Part shown: positions 1,330 to 61,010 of the stretch, piece after piece | Numbering within the stretch: the stretch's first letter is position 1 | Layout: the number at the start of each line of letters is the position of its first letter | Source of the DNA: Somniosus microcephalus | Lineage: Eukaryota | Length of the DNA stretch: 64,000 nt | Direction of reading: 5' to 3' | NCBI GenBank assembly: GCA_052327205.1 | Contig: CM126223.1 | Location: forward strand, 62,062,001 to 62,126,000 | The notes under the pieces: generated by a model | The model's input: only the letters and a program-made list of their open reading frames with translations | Database searches by the model: none | Told to the model about the DNA's origin: nothing | Program-made: the position numbers and the translations under genes

Positions 1330-3372
1330 TACTGAGATTGTCACCTGTAACCTCCTGTTACCATGGTCTTAATTACAAATATACAGCAAGACAACTTGCC
1401 TGCACTGGGCATTCTCAACAGGAGAACAATCACCTCTGCAACCCAGTGCACCAGAGATAATAAATAGAAATGTGAATAGAATTTAAAAAACTTTGCACCG
1501 TACAATCACTCAGCGGACTCAGAGATAAATCCAGAATGGCAACCTACAAAAATAGGGGCAGAACGGGGAACTTGCAATCTTTTAATGGAGAACAAGAGAA
1601 AGTAGGAATGAGAACCAGCCATTGTCTGAGTGAATACTGAGAAGATTGTTTTCCTCCATGCTTTCTTGTTGCTGATTCCTTATTTGCTCCTTAGAATATA
1701 TCAAATGGACTTGTATATTATCTTCTATTGCATGATGCTATGCAAGATAGCTCTCTGATGGAACTCCAAAAGTTTATTGGTAACTCCTGATAAACATTCC
1801 AAAATCTATATCCCAGTCAACATTTTTTTCATGTCAACATGTTGGAAGTGTGTCCTGCCCTGAAGTTGCTGGCCTCCTGTTGGGGTACAGTTCTACAGGC
1901 ACTGGCAGCCATCTACTACCTTACCCACCTGACCATTTTCCTATGTGAGCCCAGACACTGAGCTATTTGCTCCTGAGGTGTGTTTCATGACTGAGCCCGA
2001 TCCTGTCCTTGCCCAGTGGCTGCACACACCAGCACTTTCCATTCGTGGACAGTGATCAGGAGCTGGGGACCCTGGTTGAGTTTCCCCTCTCCTCTCCCCA
2101 CCACTGTACGTTTTGGTTTACAATACATTTTTAATTTTCCTTGCATTTCCAGCTTTATTTTAGTTTTCTGAGCTGCGGTAACTATCCACGGGCCCTGTTT
2201 TGTTTTGGCAGGCAATAATGATCAAGCAGAAGAAATAACAATTGTGAGAAATGATCTATTTAATAAAAAGTGCTGAGTGTGCATTGTTAGAGAATAAAGA
2301 AATCAATATTCTCAAGTATTAACATTTTTGTTTAAAAATTAGCTGTATAATGAACTAACTTTTCAATGGATACTGGGTATTTATTTTGCTAAGAAGCCCT
2401 GTTACAAGCTAGCTTCTGATGAGAACTAATGTTTGTAACTGTTAGTTAATGGGAATTGTCAGGCTTTCCCATAAACAGAGACATGTCAATCAAAAAAAAC
2501 TTACAAGTGAGTGACTCATATAGTCATTCAGGTTCTTCTGCCGGCTCGTTCGATGTATTAGTGTCTTTCATTTAAATCAAATATCTAACTTGCAAAGTAA
2601 AGATAAAAGGGCTGATTCCCTGGCACATTAGCCATGGAGTGCTGGTTTGGGAAATTGCAGGCCCAAAGGCCCGGGTTTTCTGTCCAACCAAGGAATCGGC
2701 CCTAAAAAGAAACAAGCTACAAATGCTGAAAAAGAAACCCACAAATGTCAGGAATTAAAACACAATGGCCCAGAACTTGGTGTCGGGGGCTTGCCGCGCG
2801 TGCAAGCCCCCGATCTGCACTCACCCTGCGCGCTGACATCTGAAGCCCGGGCCTGCTTGCATTTCCTGTCACAGGCCCGGTTCAGATGTCAGCGCGCAGT
2901 GCTTACCTGATCCAGCGGCGTAGTTAGTGCGATGTGCCGGCTGGGATCTGGTGAGCACTGTACAACCAATCAGGGGAGGGGAAGGTTCATTCATGAGTTT
3001 GAGAGTAAGAACTGTCAAACTCATGAAAACTACAGGGGCCCAAAACACTCTTTAAACTTTAAATAAAAATTTTAAAAACATCCCAATCATTAAATTAAGT
3101 ATAAATAAGTTTAAAAAAATAATTTAAACAATTTTTTTTTTTTGAAAAAATAAATCTATATATATAAAAGAGCTCTCCTGTCTGTCTGTCCCGATGTCTG
3201 TCTGTCTGTCCGTTCTCTATACGTTTGAAAGTTACAGAGCGTACCTCAAAAGAAAGCTTGCGATTCCGGACCGGTCATAGGCGTATTTACGTTTTGGCCG
3301 GACAAAAATCCTGCCCGCGGTATCCCAAAAACGTTCAGCGTTCCGCTCATTAGCACCTCATTAGCGACCGTG

Positions 3373-3539
3373 TGACGTCGAGGTCCACCAATCGGACGGC
3401 GGGTTCCTTCCTACAGTTGAGTGTCGAGTGACTCGACGATTGACCAATCCTACGCTTCGGTGACCTGACCGGTCGACCAATCGGTGCGTGTGTGGGCGGG
3501 CCTTATCCTTCTGAACCGAGGTGAGTGGCCGCCATCTTG
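3373..3539 (+). promoter_or_regulatory. Promoter-like module inside the Helitron
   Basis: CRE-like TGACGTCG at 3373; CCAAT at 3388, 3444 and 3477; GC box at 3494; donor GAG|GTGAGT at 3521; YY1-type GCCGCCATCTTG at 3528. Confidence 0.6.
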
Positions 3540-3728
3540 ATTTTTCACAATTTTTCCCCCCACACTTTCTGTGTGTTAGGGAACTAAGGTAAATATTTTA
3601 ATGATGTGTTAGGAAATTAAATAACAATTTAATAGGGGGGGGGGGGGAAGAGCCTTGGGAAATCGCGGGGGGGGGGGGGGGGGCGAGCCTCGGGAAATCG
3701 CGGGGCGCTCGCGCTGACCGCGCATGCG

Positions 3729-4253
3729 CTGACCGCGCATGCGCCGCCCGCCCACCCACAGCGGCCGTCCATCAGCCGCGCGATACGCGGGGGACCTCGG
3801 CTCCGGACCTCAGGCGCTAGGCAGGGGGAGGGGCCGGAGAGAGGGACAGAGGGGAGCGGGGGAGGCGAGGGGAGGGAGAGGAGGGGAGGGAGGGAGGGGA
3901 GGGGAGGGAGGGATAGGACAGGAGAGGGAGAGGACATGACCGGGAGAGGGGGGACACACAGGGGCAGGGAGACCAAGCGCCCCAAAATTGCCCACTGACC
4001 GCGCATGCGCCGCCCGCCCGCCCACAGCGGCCGTCCATCAGCCGCGCCATACGCGGGGGACCTCCGCTCCGGACCTCGGGCGCTAGGCAGGGGGAGGGGC
4101 CGGAGAGAGGGACAGAGGGGGGTGGGGGTGGGCGAGGGGAGGGAGGGAGGGAGGAAGACAGGGGAGGGGAGGGAGGGATAGGACAGGGAGAGGACATGAC
4201 AGGGAGAGGGGGGACACACAGGGGCAGGGAGACCAAGCGCCCCAAAATTGCCC
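3729..4253 (+). repeat. Tandem duplication (~265 + ~259 bp), G/purine-rich, inside the Helitron
   Basis: Units ctgaccgcgcatgcgc...ccccaaaattgccc at 3729-3993 and 3995-4253. Confidence 0.9.
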
Positions 4254-5130
4254 TCGCAACGCGGGGCTCCCCAGCTAGTTTTTAATAAAAAGGGTCTAAA
4301 ACTAAACTTACCTTATTGTAGATTCTTTAAAATAATAAACCTGTGGGAAAAAAAATTCTAAACTACACTAAAACACCACTTACCTGTAAAAATAAATACT
4401 TACGTGTGCTTTTTACAAGCGTAAAGACCGGAGGCCTTTAGACATGCGCAAATCCCCCAAAACGGAGGAAATCCAAGACACACGCGCTGCCCCCTACAGC
4501 GCACGCGCTAGCCTCTTCAACTCTTGGGTTGGAGGAGAGGAAATGCCGGTTTTCAGCGCATGCGCTGTGCATGCTGAAAACCGGCATTTCCTCTGGCCAG
4601 ACGCGTGAGTACCCCTTCCGTACTCACGCGTTTGAGGAGGAATTTCTGCCCCAAAATGCTGGTTCATCAGTATCTGAAAAGAGAAAAGGCAGAACAGAAC
4701 CAGCGCTAACCTGCCTTTTCTCTTGCAGCTACTGACAAACCTGTGCGTTTCAAACATTTTCTTGTCCTTTCTCAGTAGTTTTACGCCATGCTAAGATCAT
4801 CTTCACGGGTGTCAGTACTGCAGCCTCTTTAATCTCTGCAATCTTGACTTTAGTGAAAACAAGAAACCTTGTGACGACTAAATGCTCTAACACACAATGA
4901 TGCTGCACACAAACACTTCACACGTTGCTCATGATTATTATTTGTTTTGCCTTTTAGCTGAAGCCGATATGTGGGATGATAGTTACAGTGTGAAAATTTG
5001 GGCAGTTGTCTTGTAAATATAGTTAATGATGTGCTTAAAAGGTGTGCAATGCAACATAATAGCAGTGACGGTTTGAACAATAACGCCAAGGATTAACGTA
5101 TACCAAAACTAAATCCTTCCCTTTATCCAG

Positions 5131-9043: not shown

Positions 9044-9314
9044 CATAGAGTCATACAGCACAGAAAGAGGCCCTTCAGCCCATCGCGTCCGCGCCGGCCA
9101 TCAAGCCCTATCTAATCTAATCCCATTTTCCAGCACTTGGTCCGTAGCCTTGTATGCTATGGCATTTCAAGTGCTCATCCAAATGCTTCTTGAATGTTGT
9201 GAGGGTTCCTGCCTCTACCATCCTTTCAGGCAGTGAGTTCCAGATTCCAACCATCCTCTGGGTGAAAAAGTTTTTCCTCAAATCCCCTCTAAACCTCCTG
9301 CCCCTTACCTTGAA
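9044..9314 (-). mobile_element. CR1 LINE 3' fragment
   Basis: catagagtcata-type tail; similar to 59203-59480. Confidence 0.75.
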
Positions 9315-9490
9315 TATTTTATTTCAAGCCATACATGAAAGTTTTGGTCATTGTTGTTCCTCCGGCTCCCCCACACTCTCCGCTGGTTCCCACCAGTGCT
9401 GCCGATCGCTCGACCCCTCCCTCAACACCCAGGACAACTCGCTTCGTCCACAGGCCTGGGGAAAAGGGGCGGCAAATGGCGTTCAACCGC

Positions 9491-10409: not shown

Positions 10410-13400
10410 GGGGGAGAAATTCAGTATCGCCCCATTTGGGGCGCAATTATTGGCCGAGTGCAAAGATTAGCGCCTGGCGCTAATTATCGCCTCCGACTGC
10501 AAACTTGGCTTTTATCGCCCCTGGAGGTGATTGGAGCGCTAAATCAGGTGCTACACACCTGTCTTAAGGCGCAAAGGCCGAGCAGCGAGGCGCTACCTCA
10601 GAGCGCTGGTGAAGCTCATGTGATGTCAGTCAGCAATGGAACACAGACACAATGGCGTCGACCAGTTCTTAAAGGGGAGGGTTGATCTTGCTCACCATCC
10701 ACATCCTGCTCATTGCAGTCTTGAATCTTGGCCTGGAGAGACCTGTACATCAAATCAGCTGGAAAGAACAATGGAGAGGCCCAGGGAAAGAGCTGAGAGT
10801 GCAGCCCCCACAGTCTCTTCTAAATCAATACAAGGAAGGGCAAATCAAAATGAACCTGCAAAGTGCTGCTCAGTGAATCTCTCCAGAAGTCTGTCTCTCT
10901 CTCTCTTGCTCTCGCTCTCGCTCTCTCTCGCTCTCTCTCAGAATGTGTGGTGCAAAAATGTCACCAACAAAAAAAGGCACGAAGTGGTCACCTTTTAAAT
11001 AGCGCTCCCCCAGTCCCTTCCTGACTGCAAAATGCTCCCCTCAACCTGTCATAGAAACATAGAAGATAGGAGCAGGAGTAGGCCATTCGGCCCCTCGAGC
11101 CTGTTCCGTCATTTAATGAGATCATGGCTGATCATCCAAATTCAGTACCCTGTCCCTGCTTTCTCCCCATATCCCTTGATCCCTTTAGCCTTAATAAATA
11201 TATCTAATTCCTTCTTGAATATATTTAATGAATTGGCCTCAACTGCCTGTGTGGTAGAAAATTCCACAGGTTCACCACTCTCTGGGTGAAGAAATTCCTC
11301 CTCATCTCATCTCAGCCCTAAATGGCTTACCCCTTATCTTTAGACTGTGACCCCTGGTTCTGGACTCCCCTGCCATCGGGAACATCCTTCCTGCATCTAA
11401 TCTGTCTAGTCCTGTTAGAATTTTATAAGTTTCAATGAGATCCCCTCTCATTCTTCTAAACTCTAGTGAATATAAGCCTAATCGACCCAATCTCTTCTCA
11501 TACGTCATTCCTGCCATCCCAGGTATCAGTCTGGTGAATCTTTGCTGCACTCCCTCCATGGCAAGAACATCCTTCCTCAGATAAGGTGACCAAAACTGCA
11601 CACAATACTCAAGGTGTGGTCTCACCAAGGCCCTGTACAACTGCAGCAAGACATCCTTGCTCCTGTACTCAAATCCTCTCGCTATGAAGGCCAACATAAC
11701 ATTTACCTTCTTAACCACCTGCTGCACCTGCATGCTTACCTTCAGCGACTGGTGCACAAGGACACCCAGGCCTCGTCGTACTTCCCCTTTTCCCAATCTA
11801 TTGCCGTTCAGATAATCTGTCTTCCTGTTTTTGCCACCGAAGTGGATAACCTCGCATTTATCCACATTGGGCAGATGCATGGCAAATGCAGTATAATCAC
11901 CCAACCTGTCCAAATCATACTGGAGTTTTTCTGCATCCTCCTCGCAGCACACATGCCCACCCAGCTTTTTGTCGTCTGCAAACTTGGAGATATTACATCC
12001 AGTTCCCTCGTCTAGATCATTTATTTATATTATATATATATATATATATAATTTATATTGTGAATAGCTGGGGTCCTAGCACCGATCCCTGCAGTACCCC
12101 ACTAGTCACTGCCTGCCACTCGGAAAAAGACCCGTTTATTCCCACTCTTTGCTTCTTGTCTGCCAACCAGTTCTCTATCCAAGACAGTACCTTACCCCCA
12201 ATCCCGTGTGCTTTAACTTTGCACGCTAATCTCTTATGTGGGACCTTATCGAAAGCCTTCTGAAAGTCCAAATACACCACATCCACTGGTTCTCCCTTAT
12301 CTATTCTACCAGTTACATCCTCAAAATATTCCAGTAGATTAGTCAAGCATGATTTACTTTATGTAAATCCATGTTGACTTTGTCCGATCCTGTCCCTGTT
12401 TTCCAAGTGCTCTGCTATTACATCTTTTATAATGGACTCTAGCATTTTCCCCCACTACCGATGTCAGACTTACCGATCTATAATCCCCCATTTTCTCTCT
12501 GCCACCTTTTTTAAATAGTGCGGTTACATTAGCTATCCTCCAATCCATGGGAACTGTTCCGGAGTCCATAGAATTTTGGAAGATGACCAGCAATGCATCT
12601 ACTATTTCTAGGGCCACTTCCTTAAGTACCCTAGGATGTAGATTATCAAGCCCTGGGGATTTATTGGCCTTCAATCCCGTCAATTTCCCCAACACCATTT
12701 CCCTACAAATACTGATTTCATTCAATTCCTCCCTCTCATTAGACCCTATGTTCCCCGACATCTCTGAAGGTTATTTGTGTCCTCCTTTGTGAAGACAGAA
12801 TCAAAGTATGTATTTAATTGGTCTGCCATTTCTTTGTTCCCCATTATAAATTCCCCTGATTCTGCAAGGGACCTACGCTTTGACTTCACCAATCTTTTTC
12901 TCTTCGCATATCTATAGAAGCTTTTACAGTCAGTTTTTATGTTCCCTGCAAGCTTACTCTCATAATCTATTTTCCCCCTCTTAATTAATCCCTTTGTCCT
13001 CCTTTGCTGAATCCTAAACTGCTCCCAATCCTCAGGTTTGCTGCTTTTTCTGGCCAAATTATATGTTCTCTCCTTGGATCTTATGCTATCCCTAATTTCC
13101 CTTGTTAGCTACGGTTGAGTCACCTTTTTTGTTTTTGTGCCAAACAGGGAAGAACAAATTCTGTAGTTCATCCATGCGATCTTTAAATGTTTGCCATTGC
13201 CTATCCACCGTTAACCCTTTAAGTAACATTCCCCAATCCATCCTAGCCAACTCGTGCCTCATACCATCGTAGTTCCCTTTATTTAAATTCAGGACCCTAG
13301 TCTCTGAGTCAACTACTTCATTCTCCATTTTAAAGAAGAATTCGATCATATTATGATCGCTCCTCCCCAAGGGGCCTCGCACAACAAGATTGCTAATTAA

Positions 13401-22669: not shown

Positions 22670-23262
22670 GTTCATGCTTCAGTTATACAGGGCATTAGTG
22701 AGACCACATCTGGAGTACTGTGTACAGTATTGGTCTCCTTATTTAAGGAAGGATGTAAATGCGTTGGAAACAGTTCAGAGAAGGTTTACCAGACTAATAC
22801 CTGGAATGGGCGGGTTGTCTTATGAGGAACGGTTGGACAGGCTAGGATTGTATCCGCTGGAGTTTAGAAGAGTAAGAGGTGACTTGATTGAAACATATAA
22901 GATCCTGAGGGGTCTGGACAGGGTGGATGTGGAGAGGATATTTCCTCTTGTGGGAGAATCGAGAACTAGGGGTCACTGTTTAAAAATAAGGGGTCGCCCA
23001 TTTAAGACTGAGATGAGGAGAATTTTTTTCTCTGAGGGTCGTGAGTCTTTGGAACTCTCTTCCTCCGAGGGCGGTGGAAGCAGAGTCTTTGAATATTTTT
23101 AAGGCAGAGGTAGATAGATTCTTGATAAGCAAGGGGGTGAAAGGTTATCGGGGATAGACGGGATTGTGGAGTAATCAGATCAACCATGATCTTATTGAAT
23201 GACGGAGCAGGCTCGAGGGGCCGAGTGGCCTACTCCTGCTCCTAATTCGTATGTTCGTATGT
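22670..23262 (+). mobile_element. CR1 LINE 3' fragment
   Basis: MLQLYRALVRPHLEYCVQYWSP...RGDLIETYKI; (ttcgtatg)n tail. Confidence 0.93.
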
Positions 23263-36432: not shown

Positions 36433-36704
36433 AGAACAGATTTAAAGTGATTGACAAAAGAACCAGAGGCGGCATGAGGAAAATCTTTTTTTTAACCCAG
36501 CGAGTGGTTAGGATTTGGAATGCCCTGTCTGATTCAATAGTAGCCTTCAAAAGGGAATTGGATAAATACTTGAAGGAGAAAAAATTGCAGGAATATGGGG
36601 AAAGAGCGGGGGAGTGGGACTAACTGGATTGCTCTTCGACTGAGACGGCGCAGATTTGATGGGCTGAATGGCCTCCATCTGTGCTGTACTATTCTATGAT
36701 TCTA
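36433..36704 (+). mobile_element. CR1 LINE 3' end
   Basis: ORF2 C-terminal 'FFTQRVVRIWNAL' and attctatgattcta tail. Confidence 0.8.
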
Positions 36705-48061: not shown

Positions 48062-48179
48062 CTCTAAGGTAATCTACTGAGACTTCAGGATATTAGCCTA
48101 ACCTAAATTATTGTACCGTCGTCACCCGATGCATTTCGCAGGTCACATTTCCTTGGTTTCACCAGCACAGAAACTCATT

Positions 48180-48930
48180 GGCTCAGAAATTCGGGTCGGA
48201 GGCTTCCCGCGGGTGCAAGCCTCCGACCTGCACTTACCTTGCACGCCGGCCGTTGAGCTGTGGGCCCCCGTGGAATTGCGATCCTGGGCCTCCTCCAACT
48301 GCTGGCGCGCAGTGCTTGCGTATCCCAGGGGCGCAGTTAGTTCGATGCGTCCCCTGGGATCACGTGGGCTATGGAGAGCCAATGGTAGCAGGGAATGCTT
48401 CATTCATATAGGTTTGACAGGAAGACCTGTCAAACCTATAAAAACTATAAGCCCCAAAAATCACTAAAACCTCAAATAAATTTTTTTTTAAATCACATTT
48501 TTAAAATAAACTATAAATTACATGAAATAACTTTTAAACAATACAGCAATTTAAATTTTTGAAAAGAAATTACATTTTCTAACGGGGCTAAAATAAACTT
48601 ACCTTTCTTTAAAGTATTTAAAAATAATAAACCTGTGGAAGAAATGTTTTAATTTTAATTAATTCACCACTTACCTTGTTAAAAGCAGGCCTTGCGACTG
48701 CTTTTTACATGTATAACTTCTGGAAACTTACCTTCCCGGAGAAACCTGGGAAAAAAACGTAAGTTCGATGCGCACGCGCTGCCTCTCTCGCGCACGCGTT
48801 CCACCTCTTAACCCCTTTCAGGGGAACGGAAGTGCCGGTTTCCCGTGCATGCACGAAACCGGCACTTCCATTGGGCCTACGGGTGAGTACCCCGTGCGTA
48901 CTCACCCGTGGAGACCCGAATTTCTGGGCC
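48180..48930 (+). mobile_element. PIF/Harbinger-like MITE, intact
   Basis: TIRs GGCTCAGAAATTCGGGTC / GACCCGAATTTCTGGGCC; 3-bp TSD ATT. Confidence 0.85.
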
Positions 48931-49479
48931 ATTGTGTTTTATGGAATATATATAATCGTCTGCACCCACACTTATTTTTAGTTCTGCTTTTAACCAGATA
49001 TTTATCCAACTACTTTTTTTTAATATAAAAGTTAATTAACTGACCTGCTTGGAGTCTGTTTCGCAGATCATCCACTATGGGGAGAAAGAATTTCTTTCAA
49101 CAATAGTTTTGCTCAAGGCTGATTAATTTTGTTCTTGCGTCTCGCAGTTCTGTAATCATAGTTTAAGTTAAGTAACTTCCATCTTAATGCTTTGCTGTAT
49201 TTTAAAGACTAGAATCATGTCCCCTCTTAATTATCTTTTCTACAATGAAAGCAAGCTCATTTCAAAAAGCTGATCCATGTAACTTAAAGGTTTAAATTCT
49301 AGACTTGGCCTTGCCACTCTGCAAAGGATCAATGTTCTTTTGAAGGCAGCTTTCTTTATAATGGCGCACAATGGCTTTACTATTGAGTTACACAAAGTTG
49401 AAATAACTTTTAATCAAATGTACTTGAGCTGCATTTCTGTCCTTTTATTAGCCTGGTAGATGACACTTCAGATAATTGT

Positions 49480-51630
49480 CATAGAGCCATTCGGCCCATC
49501 GAGCCCACGCCGGCTCTCAGTAGAGCAATCCAATCAGTCCCATTCCCCCGCTCTATCCCCGTAGCCCTGCAAGTTTATTTCCCTCAAGTGCCTATCCAGT
49601 CTCCCCTTGAAAACATTGAGTGTCTCTGTTTCCACCACTTCCATCAGCAGCGAATTCCAGGTCCTCACCACTCGCGTAAAAAAGTTTTTCCTCACATCCC
49701 CCCTGTATCTCTTGCCCAAAACCTTAAATCTGTGTCCCCTAGTCCTTGTACCATCAACTAATGGGAACAGCCTTACCCCGTCTAGCCTATCCAAACCCGT
49801 TATAATCTTGTACACCTCTATCAAATCATCCCTCAACCTCCTTTGCTCTACTGAAAACAAATCCAGTTTCTCCAACCTGTCCTTGTAGCTAAGATTCCCC
49901 CATCCCCGGAACCATTCTGGTAAATCTCTGCACCCTCTCAAGGGCCTTCACATCCTTCCCAAAGTGTGGTGACCAGAACTGGATGCAACACTCCAGCGGC
50001 AGCCCAACCAGCGCTCCACAGAGGCTGAGCACAACCTCTTTACCTCTGCATTCAACACCTCCACCCATGAAGCCCAAGATCCCACACGCTCCACCAATCA
50101 CTCTCCCAACACGTCCCTCCACCCTCCGGGACCCACGCACACCAACTCCCAGGTCCCTCCGTCCCCGCACACTTCCCAAAGCCGCGCCACCGCCTCTCCC
50201 CGTTCCCCCCGCCAAAATGCATCACCAAACTCCATCCGCCACCCGTCTGCCCACTCCGCCAGCCCCTCCACACCCTGCTGCAGTCAATCGGCATCATCCT
50301 CACTGTTTGCCACACCCCCAAGCTTGGCGCCATCAGCAAACTCAGAAATTCCACTCTGCACCCCAACATCCAGGCCATCCACATACACCAAAAAAAGCAA
50401 TAGCCCCAGCACTGACCCCCGGGGAACACCACTGTCCCCCAGTTCGAAAAACAGCCATCTACCACAACTCGCTGCCCGCCATCCCCAAGCCAGTTCCCCA
50501 CTCAAGCTGCCACTGATCCACCCACTCCACAAGCCCCAACCCTGCCAACCAGCATTCCACGCGGTACCCTGCCAAACGCCCTCCAAAAATCCACGCAGAC
50601 AACATCCACCGCACTCCCCCCACCAGTCCCCTCTGCCACCCCATCAAAAAACTCAACTAGATCAGCAAAACACAATCCGCCCTCCACAAATCCATGCCGG
50701 CCCTCCCCAATCAGCCCAAATCTCTCCAAGCACCCGTCAACCCCTTCCCTGACCATTGCCTCCAAAACCCCACCCACCATCGATGCCAAACCAACTGGCC
50801 CGCAGTCACCAGGACACCCCCCCCCGCCGAACTACGGTGCCACACCCCAATCCTCGGGCACTTCCCCCACATCTAGGGAAGATTGGAAAATTATGGCAAG
50901 CCCTTCTGCTATCTCCTCCCCTAATTCCCTTAGCAACTTGAGGTGCAAGCCATCTGGACCAGGCGACTTGTCCACTCTAAGCATACCCAGCCTTTCCAGT
51001 ACATCCTGTCTATCAATTTTCACCCCTTCCATTGCTTCTACCTTTTCCATTTCTACTGATATTTTGTCAGCATCCACCTCCTTAGTAAATACCGATACAA
51101 AGTACTCATTGAGTATTCTAGCCTTGCCCTGCGCCTCTAAGCACATAACACCTTCTTTGTCTCTAATAGGCCCCAGCCCGCCTCTTACTACCCGCTTACT
51201 GTTTACTTGCCGGTAGAAGATTTTTGGGTTCCCTTTTATGTTAACCGCCATTCTACTCTCATATTCTCTCTTTGCCAATCTTATTTTCATCTTTACTTCC
51301 CCTCTCAACTTATTGTATTTGGTCTGGTTCTCCCTTGAAGAATTCACCTGACATGCGTCATACACCCTCTCTTTTGTTTCATCATCTTCTCTATCTCCCT
51401 CATCATCCAAGGAGCCCTTGCTTTGGTTCCCCTTACCCTTCCCTCTTGTTGGAATGTACCTAGTCTATACTTGGAACATCTCCTCCTTAACGATCACCCA
51501 GTGTGCCGTTACAGTTTTTCCTGTCAGTCTTTGGTCCCATTTTACCCTGGCTAGATCCTTTCGCATCCCATTGAAGTTGGCCCTATTCCAGTTTAGAAGT
51601 TCCACTCTAGATTGCTCCAAAATCCTTTTC
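49480..51630 (-). mobile_element. CR1 LINE ORF2 fragment with a hypermutated tract
   Basis: DKSPGPDGLH and RDDLIEVYKI at the flanks; RT motifs still recognisable but altered in ~49955-50870. Confidence 0.93.
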
Positions 51631-51801
51631 CACTTTTACTAATGGCCACTAATTCATTCTGTACATATTTCCTGTGCCATGGTACATTACATTTTTCCAC
51701 ATTAAAACTCATCTGCCATTCTTTAGCTTATCCACTTTATTTTCCCAGGTTCCTTTGAATGTTCTCAATCACTTCACACTAGTAACCTGGCCACGCAACT
51801 T

Positions 51802-52578
51802 GGTCCCGTAATTCGGGTCGGGGGCTTCCTGCGGGTGCAAGCCCCCGATCTGCACTTAGCTTGCACGCCGGCCGTTGAGCTGTGGGCCCCCATGGAATTC
51901 CGATCCGGGGCCTGGTCCAGCTGCCAGCGCACAGTGCTTGCGTATCCCAGGGGCGCAGTTAGTTCGATGCATCCCCTGGGATCACGTGGGCCATGGGGAG
52001 CCAATCGAAGCAGGGAATGCTCCGTTCATAAGTCTGACAGGAAGTGCTGTCAAGACTTATAAATACTACGGCCCCAAAACAGCACTAAATCTTCAAATAA
52101 TTTTTTTTTTTAAATCACATTTTTAAAATAAACTATAAATTACATGAAATAACTATTTTAAACAATTTAAATTTTTGAAAAAAATTATTTTATTTTCTAA
52201 CGGGGCTAAAAATAAACTTACCTTGCTTTAAAGCATTTAAAAATAATAAACCTGTGGGAAAAAATGTTTTAATTTTAATTAATTCACCACTTACCTTGTA
52301 AAAAGCAGGCCTTGCAACTGCTTTTTACATTTCTAACTTCTGGAGACTTACCTTCCTGGGAAAACCTGTTTTAAAAAAAAAAAAAAAAAAAACGAAGTTC
52401 GATGTGCAGGCGCAGCCTCCCCTGCGCGCGCGTTCGACCTCTGAACCCCTTCGTTCAGAGGAACGGAAGTGCCGGCTTCCCGCGCATGCGCCGTGCATGC
52501 AGGAAACCGGCACTTCCATTGGGCCTACGGGTGAGTACCCCGTGCGTACTCACCCGTGGGGACCCGAATTTCTGGGCC
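51802..52578 (+). mobile_element. PIF/Harbinger-like MITE, close relative of 48180
   Basis: Highly similar throughout; 3' TIR GACCCGAATTTCTGGGCC. 5' TIR degenerate and TSD not matched. Confidence 0.85.
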
Positions 52579-54757
52579 AATGTTAATGAATAGTGTAAAC
52601 AGCAGTGGTCCCGGAATAGACCCCTCAGAATTCCAATTGTTACTGCCCCAACTGGAGCTTTTTCCATTTTTCGTTGTCTTCTGCTTTCTGCTGCTTGGAC
52701 CAGTTATCAAATCAGCTAATTTGTTATTCTATGACCCTCAATCTTAATTTACAAGTCTCACATCAGAACTGTCCAATGCCATCTCAAAGCATTTGTCTGC
52801 TAGTTTACTTCCCTCCTGAAAATTTCTGTAGATTGGTGAAGCATGTCTTGGGCAAGTGATTTGTCACCGTGTGCCATGCCACTTCAAGTCCACTGATTTT
52901 CACCTTGTAGCACAACTTTCCCTGTCAGTTTCTCCTGTCATGGGCACTTCAGTTTTAATCAGCAGCATGATTCAAAGTGTTCTGCCTCTCTCAGTCTGCC
53001 GAAGAATAATGGCATTTTCTACCTGTCACCAACCGCTCAGCCCACCGGCACTGTTTGATATTGAGTCGAATTAGTGTCAGTGAGCTGACTGTTAAACCAA
53101 TTGTTACAGTAACCAGCTCAGCTTACAGACTTTCTCCAGAGTGATCGCCTGAACATCTAAAAACTCTTCAAAGCTGCCAAGAGGTTCCTGAAGTTCTCCA
53201 GCATCTAAGCTGCCTCAGAGCAACGCAAGTTAGCAACGCAGAGACATAATACAGCTGCAGAGAAAGACAACACTTGTCTGTTAGTTGTTAGTGGCCATGT
53301 GCCTGCAACACTCTGACTTGTACAATCAGCAAGTGCTCCGCTTACTGACAGTTAAATTCAGACTTTCATTTTTGGAGTGCTTGCCCACTCCAAGACTAGC
53401 TGTTGGAGTAATTAGGTAGAAACTTGCTTCATTGTTAGGCGGCTGAGAGGCGCAGATTGCCACTACTTTAAAACAGACTGTTGATTAAAATCAAAGCGCT
53501 GGTGAGAGAACAAACTGAAGGGACTGACTCAGATCTGCAAGCAGACTATCCCCAACAACTGCCCCGTGATTTTCAGCAATTTTGCCGTAGCAAACCATTA
53601 GACATGACCTAATATTTCTAAAACCATGTTGACCATTTATTAATATCCTCCAGATGACCATCAATAGTACTCTGTTCTACTAGTTGTATAATGCTCTGAG
53701 TGATTTTTTTTTTTTGTTGAATTTTGCATTAACGTCTGCTGAACTCCAGTCTTCGGGTTTTGCTCCTATATTTATAGAAGTTTTAACACGAGTTGAGGCC
53801 TTTGTGCCCTTTTTGCCTGTGTTGAATTTAGGTTGTTTTTGGGGGCTGATTTTCCACGGTCCCATTTTCCTGTTTCGCACCCCCCCCCCCCCAATACCCT
53901 TTTATATTCGTCTTTACAGTTTTGAATGCTGCAACCGATTTAGCATCAATCGCCACTCGTGTCAAAGCGTTCCACATGCCAGTAACTCCGTGTATGAATA
54001 AAGTTTCTTCTAATCTCCACTTTTGTGTATCTAGTGATCATAGCCCTATGTCTTTGGTTTACTTACCAATGGAAATGATATATGTTAGTTTACCATGTCT
54101 CTTCCTTTTACTACTTTGAACCGCTATCAAATCACTCCTCCCCTCTATCTTATCAGTGTAAGAGAATGCAGACCTAATTGCTCCAGCCTGCAGAGAAAGG
54201 CAACAGCTGTCTGTTACTGGGCACGTGTCTGGCCAGCCAGGGAATAGCTGAATCTGAAGGAAGCACATATGGAGTCTGTAAGACCAGCTGGTTACTGTAA
54301 TATCCTGCCTTAACAATCAGCAAGTGCTGCACTCACTGACAGTCCTCATAAGCCAGCCCCTTCATCCCTGGTATCCTCTTGATCAGCCTGTTTTACAGTT
54401 TCTCCAGGGCTATTATGCGCCACCTATAGAGAGGAGCCTAAAAAAATGATAATCCTCCCAATAGTGAGAGTTACTAAAAATATTAACTGGAGCCTTACTA
54501 TATCCTTGCTTTTCTTAAAATAATTCTATGGTGATCTCATCGTCTAGGTTCCTGTAGACATTTTAATATTGATCAATGTAAAGTAGGTCAGGAGGGAAGA
54601 AATGATAAAATTAACTTTTTCACTATAGTAAAAATTAGCACTCACTTTTTTAAAAAGTTAACTTAATTTAACACTGTTCAATATTTTTTCATTATCAGTG
54701 AGTCCTTTTTGGAGGTAGATTTTATGCACAAGTGAACATTTTGTTTTATTTTAACAG

Positions 54758-59202: not shown

Positions 59203-61010
59203 CATAGAATCATAGAAATTTACGGCACAGAAGGAGGCCATTTGGCCCATCGTGTCTGTGCCAGCTGAAAAAGAGCTCTCCACCCTAATCCCACTTTCCA
59301 GCTCTTGGTCCGTAGCCTTGTAGGTTACGGCACTTCAAGTGCATATCCAAGTACTTTTTAAATGCGATGAGCGTTTCTGCCTCTACCACTCTTTCAGACA
59401 GTGAGTTCCAGACCCCCACCACCCTCTGGGTGAAAAAAGTTCTCCTCCACTCCCCTCTAATCCTTCTACCAAAACTTTAAATCTATGCCCCCTGGTTATT
59501 GACCTCTGCTAGGGGAAATTGGTCCTTCCTATCCACTCTATCTAGGCCCCTCATAATTTTATACACCTCAATCAAGTCTCCCCTCGGCCTCCTCTGTTCC
59601 AAAGAAAACAACTCCAGCCTATCCAATCTCTCCTCATAGCTAAAATTCTCCAGTCCTGGCAACATCCTCGTAAATCTCCTCTGTACCCTCTCTAGTGCAA
59701 TCACACCTTTCCTGTAATGTGGTGACCAGAACTGTACACAGTACTCTAGCTGTGGCCTAACTAGTGTTTTATACAGTTCAAGCATAACCTCCCTGCTCTT
59801 ATATTCTAAGCATCGACTAATGAAGGAAAGTATCCCGTATGCCGCCTTAACCACCTTATCTACCTGTCCTGCTACCTTCAGGGATCTGTCGACATGTACT
59901 CCAAGGTCCCTCTGTTCCTCTACACATCTCAGTATCTTACCATTTATTGTGTATTCCCTTGTCTTATTAGCCCTCCCCAAATTACCTCACACATCTCCAG
60001 ATTGAATTCCATTTGCCACTTTTCTGCCCACCTGACCAGTCCATTGATATCTTCCTGCAGTCTACAGCTTTCTTCCTCACTATCAACCACACGGCCAATT
60101 TTTGTATCATTTGCAAACTTCTTAATCATCCCCCTACATTGAAGTCTAAATCATTGATGAATACCACAAAAAGCAAGGGACCGAGTACTGAGCCCTGCAG
60201 AACCCCACTGGAAGCAGCCTTCCAGTCACAAAAACATCTGTCGACCATTACCCTTTGCTTCCTGCCACTGAGCTAATTTTGGATCCAACTTGCCACTTTC
60301 CCTTGGATCCGATGGGCTTTTACTTTTCTGACCAGTCTGCCATGTGAGACCTTGTTAAAAGTCTTGCTAAAAACCATGTAGACGACATCAAATGCACTAC
60401 CCTTATCAACCCTCCTTGTTACCACCTCAAAAAAATTCAATCAAGTTAGCCAGACACGACCTTCCCTTAACAAATCCATGCTGACTGTCCTTGATTAATC
60501 CGTGCCTTTCTAAATGACGATTAATACTATCCCTCAGAATTTTTTACAACAATTTGCCCACCACCTAGGTTAGGCTGACTGGCCTGCAGTTACTCAGTCT
60601 ATTCCTTTCTCCCCTTTTGAACAATGGTACAACATTAACAGACCTCCAGTCCTCCGGCACCGCACCTGTAGCCAGAGAGGATTGAAAAATGATGGTCAGA
60701 GCCTCTGCTATCTCCTCCCTTGCTTCTCTTAACAGCCTGAGATACATTTCATCTGGGCCTGGGGATTTATCTACTTTCAAAGGTGCTAAACCCCTTAATA
60801 CTTCCTCTCTCACTATGTTTATCTCATCTAATATTTCACACTCCTCCTTCTTAACTACAATGTCTGCATTGCCCCTCTCTTTTGTGAAAACAGAACCATA
60901 CCCACGGCTTCTGCCTCCTCACACAAACTTCATTTTTGGTCTCTAATAGACCCTACTCTTTCTTTAGTTATCCTCTTGCTCTTTATGTATTTATAAAACA
61001 TATTTGGGTT
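59203..61010 (-). mobile_element. CR1 LINE ORF2 fragment, unedited
   Basis: LYKTLVRPQLEYCVQFWSP, KFANDTK, DKSPGPD; attctatg tail. Confidence 0.93.

What the first reader, a model, noticed from the sequence alone, without database searches (positions are those of the whole stretch)
49955..50870. CR1 LINE with strand-specific A-to-G hypermutation: probable genomic fossil of ADAR hyper-editing
Seen: within an otherwise normal minus-strand CR1, ~0.9 kb has lost most + strand T (hand count ~37 T in 300 nt at 50521-50820, versus 26 in 60 nt at 51001-51060) while A is retained. This equals A-to-G on the LINE RNA strand. Translations agree: LCGALVGLPLECCIQFWSPHFGKD here versus LYKTLVRPQLEYCVQFWSPHYRKG in the copy at 59483, and VDVVCVDFWRAFGRVPR versus VDVVYLDFQKAFDKVPH at 12053. 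The changes Y>C, K>G/R, T>A, D>G, H>R and R>G are all reachable by A>G. Surviving T are mostly TC (~24 of 37), rarely TA or TT (~5). Established: ADAR deaminates A to I in dsRNA, RT reads I as G, and a 5' G neighbour is disfavoured while U/A are favoured; APOBEC editing gives G>A instead. Inference: a hyper-edited CR1 transcript was still retrotransposed in the germ line, writing RNA edits into DNA and creating a CpG-rich patch. Strand asymmetry argues against GC-biased gene conversion. Some TC may derive from partly edited TT.
Basis: partly seen in the sequence, partly recalled or inferred. Interest (0 to 1): 0.92.

Follow-up and report, generated by a model that had tools for sequence, protein, structure and literature searches.

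The report
ADAR-edited LINE copies fixed in germline
A jumping-gene copy carries about 165 A-to-G changes with the signature of the RNA-editing enzyme ADAR, as do five more copies elsewhere in the genome, which suggests that edited RNA was copied back into the germ line several times long ago and left a lasting DNA record of RNA editing.

Summary
Confirmed and extended. Against a reference built from 77 family copies, 165 of 272 sense-strand A read G in window 49989-50840, versus 8 of 398 outside; T>C is 4. Editing by 5' neighbour is U 0.90, A 0.76, C 0.58, G 0.26, the published ADAR order, at the 50-60% plateau of long dsRNA. The tract is in contigs of runs from four coded organisms up to about 9% apart, and edit-made CpGs have decayed as far as original ones, so it is real and about as old as the insertion. 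Five more edited copies lie on other contigs, about 6 in roughly 7,000. Four, including this one, share tract edges and site preferences, yet their edits fit independent events; rare shared variants point to one source element. Best reading: a CR1-type RNA paired over about 1 kb was hyper-edited by ADAR and still reverse-transcribed, repeatedly. The partner strand and the source locus were not found. Known for retroviruses; my ten literature searches found no report for germline LINE copies.

The parts
49478..51620 (-). 5'-truncated CR1-type LINE copy (3' 2.2 kb: ORF2 with the RT domain, short 3' UTR, one unit of the short tail repeat)
   Evidence: Flanks 94-95% identical to the best family hits; reference has a 715-codon open frame; RVT_1 in sibling copy L172, E 3e-35; tail compared with five siblings
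49989..50840 (-). Hyper-edited tract, 165 of 272 A to G on the sense strand; covers most of the RT domain; 104 codons changed non-synonymously
50846..50847 (-). 9-nt deletion at the 5' edge of the tract; L102 and L104 also have a 9-nt deletion at their own 5' edges
50828..50829 (-). 6-nt deletion in a G run made by editing; run X2 has 6 extra letters here
50436..50437 (-). 7-nt deletion inside the tract, shared with the contig of run X5
50226..50227 (-). 17-nt deletion inside the tract, shared with the contig of run X5
50191..50192 (-). 11-nt deletion inside the tract, shared with the contig of run X5
50847..51615 (-). Unedited 5' part of the copy (5 A>G in 266 A)
51366..51382 (-). A run one base shorter than in the family reference, a frameshift upstream of the RT domain, shared with edited copies L102 and L104 (family 11 of 114); position approximate
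49486..49988 (-). Unedited 3' part, about 500 nt; 2 A>G in 125 A over 49490-49954 plus one at 49960

Best explanation
A CR1-type LINE RNA was base-paired over about 1 kb of ORF2 to a complementary CR1 stretch. ADAR deaminated 40-60% of the adenosines in that duplex. The 3' end stayed unedited, so a CR1 reverse transcriptase primed there, read inosine as G and inserted the copy in the germ line. This happened several times: four copies on four contigs record separate editing rounds on the same duplex, probably from one frameshifted source element moved in trans, and two more record other duplex extents. Shown: spectrum, strand, context, sharp edges, age, independence of edits, shared variants. 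Inferred: the enzyme, the RNA stage, trans mobilisation and the nature of the partner (an inverted copy in the source transcript about 55%, an antisense RNA in trans about 35%).
For: 5' order U>A>C>G in this copy and pooled over six copies: 273/350, 388/627, 138/378, 87/531, with a weak 3' G preference, odds 1.84 (sites are reused across copies). Published hADAR1 order is 5' U>A>C>G, 3' G first (PMC3113232), and 50-60% of A are edited in long dsRNA. Pooled fate of changed A: G 886, T 29, C 18; T>C 24 of 1408. All six copies are edited on the sense strand. Edges: last edit at reference 1689, 1689, 1689, 1698 and first at 791, about 700, 698, 714; just beyond the edges 0-2 edits where 20-32 would be expected. 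Site sharing among these four exceeds a trinucleotide shuffle, z 3.4-5.1 in 6 of 6 pairs, versus -0.8 to 2.4 in the 9 pairs with L105 or L106, yet a star-shaped independent-events model fits, chi2 3.3, df 8, p 0.91. Two rare variants are shared by three of the four; 0 of 1500 random quartets reach two. Edit-made CpG decayed to TG in 34 of 133, original CpG in 39 of 156, unedited CA to TA in 9 of 235.
Against: Neither the source element nor the partner strand was found, and the reference has no internal complementarity. The window copy lacks the two rare substitutions of L102-L104; its link to them rests on the A-run loss (family frequency 11 of 114), the shared 3' edge and site preferences, all noticed after the fact. 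ADAR1 did not edit L1 RNA in cell culture over more than 2.5 kb (PMC5224506). This organism's ADAR genes were not examined. The queries favoured copies edited in this same interval, so shared edges are partly open to ascertainment.
Confidence: 0.88

Rival explanations
1. DNA-level hypermutation at or after insertion, by polymerase eta-type error-prone synthesis (A>G at TA and AA) or by an adenine deaminase acting on single-stranded DNA or on the DNA strand of an RNA:DNA hybrid.
For: TA and AA are the most changed contexts, as in the polymerase eta signature (recalled). Small deletions are about three times denser in the tracts, 15 in 6296 nt versus 128 in 158,937, p 2.6e-4. ADARs can edit DNA in hybrids at A-C mismatches (review PMC12925331).
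Against: 95% of changed A become G (886 of 933) at 30-60% density, and CA is clearly above GA. Deamination of first-strand cDNA would give T>C on the sense strand, which is nearly absent. Copies on different contigs share edges in element coordinates.
Confidence: 0.04
2. Each copy inserted unedited; later a locally edited host transcript was reverse-transcribed and overwrote part of it by gene conversion.
For: The tract is internal with sharp edges, and 3 of 4 sibling copies have a 9-nt deletion within about 20 nt of the 5' edge, which looks like a junction.
Against: No inverted copy of this subfamily lies in the window or within the 20-kb stretch fetched around each of the other five; inverted CR1 pieces there are 61-70% alike. 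New CpGs are as decayed as old ones. Shared variants lie in both unedited flanks and inside the tract. Independent local events would not share edges.
Confidence: 0.04
3. Reverse-transcriptase error burst from nucleotide imbalance or template dislocation, with no deaminase.
For: It would also be one-stranded and date to the insertion; deletions are enriched.
Against: Dislocation should favour A next to G; 5' G is the least changed context and the 3' neighbour has no effect in this copy, p 0.97. It cannot explain the same edges and site preferences in four insertions.
Confidence: 0.02
4. Assembly artefact, GC-biased gene conversion, or a G-rich subfamily.
For: GC rises from 41% to 60%; the best-matching run may be the assembly's own sample.
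Against: Contigs from four organism labels and three studies carry it with 1, 2, 25 and 71 differences. Other weak-to-strong changes number 2-4 each. Edited copies overlap by Jaccard 0.30-0.62 only.
Confidence: 0.01

Closest known systems
ADAR-type A-to-G hypermutation recorded in retroviral DNA (Rous-associated virus, avian leukosis virus, HTLV-2/STLV-3, BLV proviruses)
   Same: RNA edited and then fixed in DNA by reverse transcription; nearly 50% of A changed in the avian cases (PMC12925331, passages; PMC8025556, passages).
   Different: Those are infectious retroviruses in somatic or cultured cells, about 70 bp in BLV. Here it is a non-LTR element, 0.55-1.7 kb tracts, inherited, shared between organisms, and repeated from one source.
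APOBEC G-to-A edited retroelements in vertebrate genomes (ERVs; lizard L1)
   Same: A deaminase burst during retrotransposition leaves a heavily changed, inherited copy; similar rarity (85 of 32,872 lizard L1; PMC3880073, passages; PMC4866542, passages).
   Different: C-to-U on cDNA gives G>A. The ERV screen of 123 species reported other clustered mismatch types as negligible and does not mention ADAR; the lizard study has no mention of A-to-G or ADAR.
Hyper-edited cellular RNA from inverted repeats
   Same: Dense A-to-I with 5' G depletion in long duplexes (PMC4365171, PMC2873906, passages; PMC3113232).
   Different: Those edits exist only in RNA; here they are in genomic DNA.
ADAR1 restriction of LINE-1
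   Same: ADAR acts on a LINE RNA.
   Different: Reported as independent of editing, with no edits found in L1 RNA (PMC5224506, passages).

Membership tests
ADAR hyper-editing signature | A>G on one strand, other changes at background | tested here: met
   167/274 A>G versus 4/214 T>C
ADAR hyper-editing signature | 5' neighbour order U>A>C>G | tested here: met
   reference order
ADAR hyper-editing signature | Weak 3' G preference | tested here: inconclusive
   None in this copy (p 0.97); odds 1.84 pooled over six copies with non-independent sites
ADAR hyper-editing signature | Plateau near 50-60% of A in long dsRNA | tested here: met
   61% here; 32-55% in the other five
ADAR hyper-editing signature | A complementary strand spanning the tract | tested here: inconclusive
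   None near the six insertions or within the element; source locus not found
ADAR hyper-editing signature | Dependence on ADAR catalysis | not testable with these tools
   Needs experiment
Retrotransposed (pre-integration) edit | Edited strand is the element's RNA strand | tested here: met
   6 of 6 copies; queries could only find this polarity, but none of the other screened copies showed a T>C cluster
Retrotransposed (pre-integration) edit | Edits as old as the insertion | tested here: met
   CpG decay 34/133 versus 39/156; shared with diverged organisms
APOBEC DNA editing | G>A clusters on the sense strand | tested here: not met
   G>A 12 versus A>G 166
CR1-clade LINE | Non-LTR-type RT domain in ORF2 | tested here: met
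   RVT_1 in sibling L172; Pfam does not resolve the clade
CR1-clade LINE | 5' truncation and short tandem-repeat tail, no poly(A) | tested here: met
   that this tail type marks CR1 is recalled
CR1-clade LINE | RT tree placement in CR1 rather than L2; endonuclease and ORF1 | not tested

The most novel reading that the evidence does not exclude
A long-lived antisense RNA with a fixed end near reference 1700-1735 paired with CR1 transcripts of at least two subfamilies in the germ line and steered ADAR to wreck the RT coding region: an editing-based defence against a LINE, with the six copies as escapees. Five of six tracts, including the more diverged L105, end within 42 nt of each other, and no edited copy was seen in the last 470 nt.
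Probability: 0.25. Interest if true: 0.87.

Novelty: new variant of a known kind. Interest (0 to 1): 0.76.

Why it matters
A 2016 review says a role for ADAR editing in mutating retrotransposons (there, Alus) was undetermined (PMC4982230), and cell assays found no editing of L1 RNA. These copies are in vivo evidence that a LINE RNA can be half-converted to inosine over 1 kb and still be inserted and inherited. They record the neighbour preference of an ancient germ-line deaminase and the extent of a vanished dsRNA, give a simple genome-wide screen for more such fossils, and show one way a CpG-rich patch can arise in one step. The effect on genome evolution is small: about 0.1% of copies.

Tried and rejected
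1) Editing-created microhomology as the cause of the deletions: not supported; mean microhomology 2.3 nt at 15 tract deletions versus 2.75 at 128 deletions in unedited copies. 2) A seventh edited copy: three more DNA searches and 20 fetched regions, 84 loci, gave only the same six. L125 and L219 had elevated cluster scores but mixed spectra and were not counted; nine loci were flagged only for subfamily-level A>G without a cluster. 3) Edited-motif searches: 0 hits at reference 1865, 1 hit (this copy) at 835; the second motif matches 1 of the 6 known copies, so power is low. 4) Source hunt: 39 copies match the 888 variant motif; one was examined and of the other 38, 20 have C at 1712, 3 A, 1 T, 1 hit another family and 13 do not cover the site. 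The one double-variant copy (C14:8517389-8519099) is unedited, truncated, has no close inverted partner within about 6 kb and is within chance. An inverted pair on C16 was not a source. 5) Antisense splice or poly(A) signals at the tract edges: inconclusive. 6) Internal hairpin in the element: none. 7) No RNA holder listed. 8) Neighbourhoods beyond the window and around L121 were not read. 9) Carmi 2011 and Samuel 2011 were not held, so a mention of A-to-G clusters there cannot be excluded; no supplements were read.

Full report
OBSERVATION. The window lies at G000:C22:62062001-62126000 in a 6.4-Gb assembly. The minus-strand LINE copy at about 49478-51620 has flanks 94-95% identical to its best family hits. 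I built a majority reference from 77 of 85 non-redundant copies, dropping 8 under 800 nt; 'reference' positions below are 0-based in it. The best tract is window 49989-50840: 165 of 272 A read G, 8 of 398 outside. In 49955-50845 the spectrum is A>G 166, C>T 14, G>A 12, T>C 4, all others 3 or fewer. None of the 77 copies exceeds 7 A>G per 200 nt, and the family has G at the edited sites in 1.5% of cases. GC-biased conversion fails because other weak-to-strong changes number 2-4.

SIGNATURE. Edited fraction by 5' neighbour: U 47/52, A 66/87, C 33/57, G 19/73, p 5e-14; the 3' neighbour has no effect here, p 0.97. Human ADAR1 prefers 5' U>A>C>G and 3' G first (PMC3113232, section 9), and long dsRNA is edited to 50-60% (passages). 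A>G alone changes 104 codons non-synonymously across the RT domain.

REAL AND OLD. Twelve of 17 listed runs hold words of the tract, 3 of them half or more. Laid contigs: X1 589 nt with 1 difference, X2 595 nt with 2 and a 6-letter gap, X8 442 nt with 25, X5 773 nt with 71 and only 4 gap letters, so X5 shares the 7-, 17- and 11-nt deletions. Of the 21 X8 differences shown (25 in all), one undoes an edit among the 85 edited sites covered, three are edits the window has since lost, and ten restore the family base. One run may be the assembly's own sample. CpG decay dates the edits: CA edited to CG has gone on to TG in 34 of 133 sites over six copies, original CpG in 39 of 156, while CA that stayed unedited became TA in 9 of 235. 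At 50732 X8 keeps the CG that the window has lost. Decay of the G also hides some 5'-C edits.

MORE COPIES. Using the tract as query, 5 of 29 other loci are hyper-edited, all on the sense strand with the same order: L102 131/304, L103 129/299, L104 161/294, L105 240/538, L106 58/180. Three more searches and 20 fetched regions, 84 loci, added none; the L104 query re-found the same set. An unedited 23-mer has 3,461 exact hits and matches 80 of 158 sampled copies, so about 6,800 or more copies cover the site and about 0.1% are edited; both numbers are rough.

ONE DUPLEX, SEVERAL EVENTS. In L101 (the window copy), L102, L103 and L104 the dense editing ends at reference 1689, 1689, 1689, 1698 and starts at 791, about 700, 698, 714. 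In the 210 nt beyond each side there are 0-2 edits where 20-32 are expected. Pairs among these four share more edited sites than trinucleotide context predicts (z 3.4-5.1); the 9 pairs with L105 or L106 mostly do not (z -0.8 to 2.4). The 14 informative patterns fit a model of shared site propensity and independent events (chi2 3.3, df 8, p 0.91), so the four do not descend from one edited ancestor. L102-L104 share variants at 888 (family 1 of 158; also in L106) and 1712 (4 of 133); 0 of 1500 random quartets share two such variants. L101, L102 and L104 share a one-base loss in an A run upstream of the RT domain (family 11 of 114). Against this, L101 lacks the 888 and 1712 variants; its 888 state could be CpG decay, which I could not check. 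L105 is closer to a more diverged set of copies and has a longer tract, 34-1731.

PARTNER NOT FOUND. No close inverted copy lies in the window or in 20 kb around the other five, the element has no internal complementarity, and the source hunt failed. Absence at the insertion sites is expected if pairing happened at the source.

DELETIONS. Deletions of 3-60 nt run at 2.4 per kb in tracts (15 in 6296 nt), 0.7 in the same copies' flanks (4 in 5577) and 0.8 in unedited copies, p 2.6e-4. Three of four sibling copies have a 9-nt deletion at the 5' edge. Slippage of the reverse transcriptase on inosine-rich RNA is a guess; the microhomology test was negative, and alignment in diverged tracts may inflate the count.

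MECHANISM. Shown: strand, purity, context, plateau, edges, age, independence. Inferred: ADAR as enzyme; editing before target-primed reverse transcription (editing of first-strand cDNA would give T>C); a frameshifted source moved in trans; an inverted copy in the source transcript or an antisense RNA as partner. Confidence 0.88 for ADAR editing of the RNA before insertion.

KNOWN WORK. ADAR-type A>G in DNA is reported for avian retroviruses and HTLV-2/STLV-3 (PMC12925331, passages) and BLV (PMC8025556, passages). Genome screens for edited retroelements looked for APOBEC G>A (PMC4866542, passages; PMC3880073, passages; PMC2873906, passages). ADAR1 restricts L1 without editing it (PMC5224506, passages), and a review calls the mutational role undetermined for Alus (PMC4982230, passages). 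PMC5974252 and PMC4365171 (passages) showed no such case in what I saw. Ten searches (listings only, apart from the papers named) found no report of inherited ADAR-hypermutated LINE copies; subscription journals are mostly missing and Carmi 2011 was not held. Two unchecked notes of this scan describe similar cases in an L1 and an ERV of other genomes: a hint that the phenomenon is general, not evidence.

VERDICT. Real, old and repeated; a new variant of a known kind. Interest 0.76.

Noticed in passing
window 48178-48935 and 51800-52583; related pieces at 2758-3174 and 4276-4654: Two copies, 85% alike, of a roughly 790-nt interspersed element with similar inverted ends flank the LINE; it looks like a non-autonomous DNA transposon, not an LTR pair. 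The copy near 2760-4650 is split by about 1.1 kb of other sequence.
   Followed up: partly
window 3600-4300: The lowest T content of the window is a GA-rich duplicated unit of low complexity with CpG-rich pieces, not an edited LINE.
   Followed up: partly
window 49504 and 49508: Two A>G changes close together near the 3' end of the copy, outside the tract; may be chance.
   Followed up: no
run X5, contig 22, laid on window 49968-50084: A 117-nt contig with 14 differences, several of them further sense-strand A>G; possibly an independently edited copy in that organism.
   Followed up: no
window 11082-12986, 59237-61010, 22710-23229, 36436-36672, 9070-9315: Other, more distant CR1-type copies, 56-70% alike to the edited copy; not screened against their own subfamilies.
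   Followed up: no
L103 and L104 (G000:C14 near 97.78 Mb; G000:C9 near 205.39 Mb): Both edited copies were later interrupted in their 3' part by insertions of another LINE family, in line with an old age.
   Followed up: no
G000:C38:17471924, C125:228745, C794:60532: Three copies with the same pair of variants, two on small contigs; probably a duplicated or redundantly assembled region.
   Followed up: no
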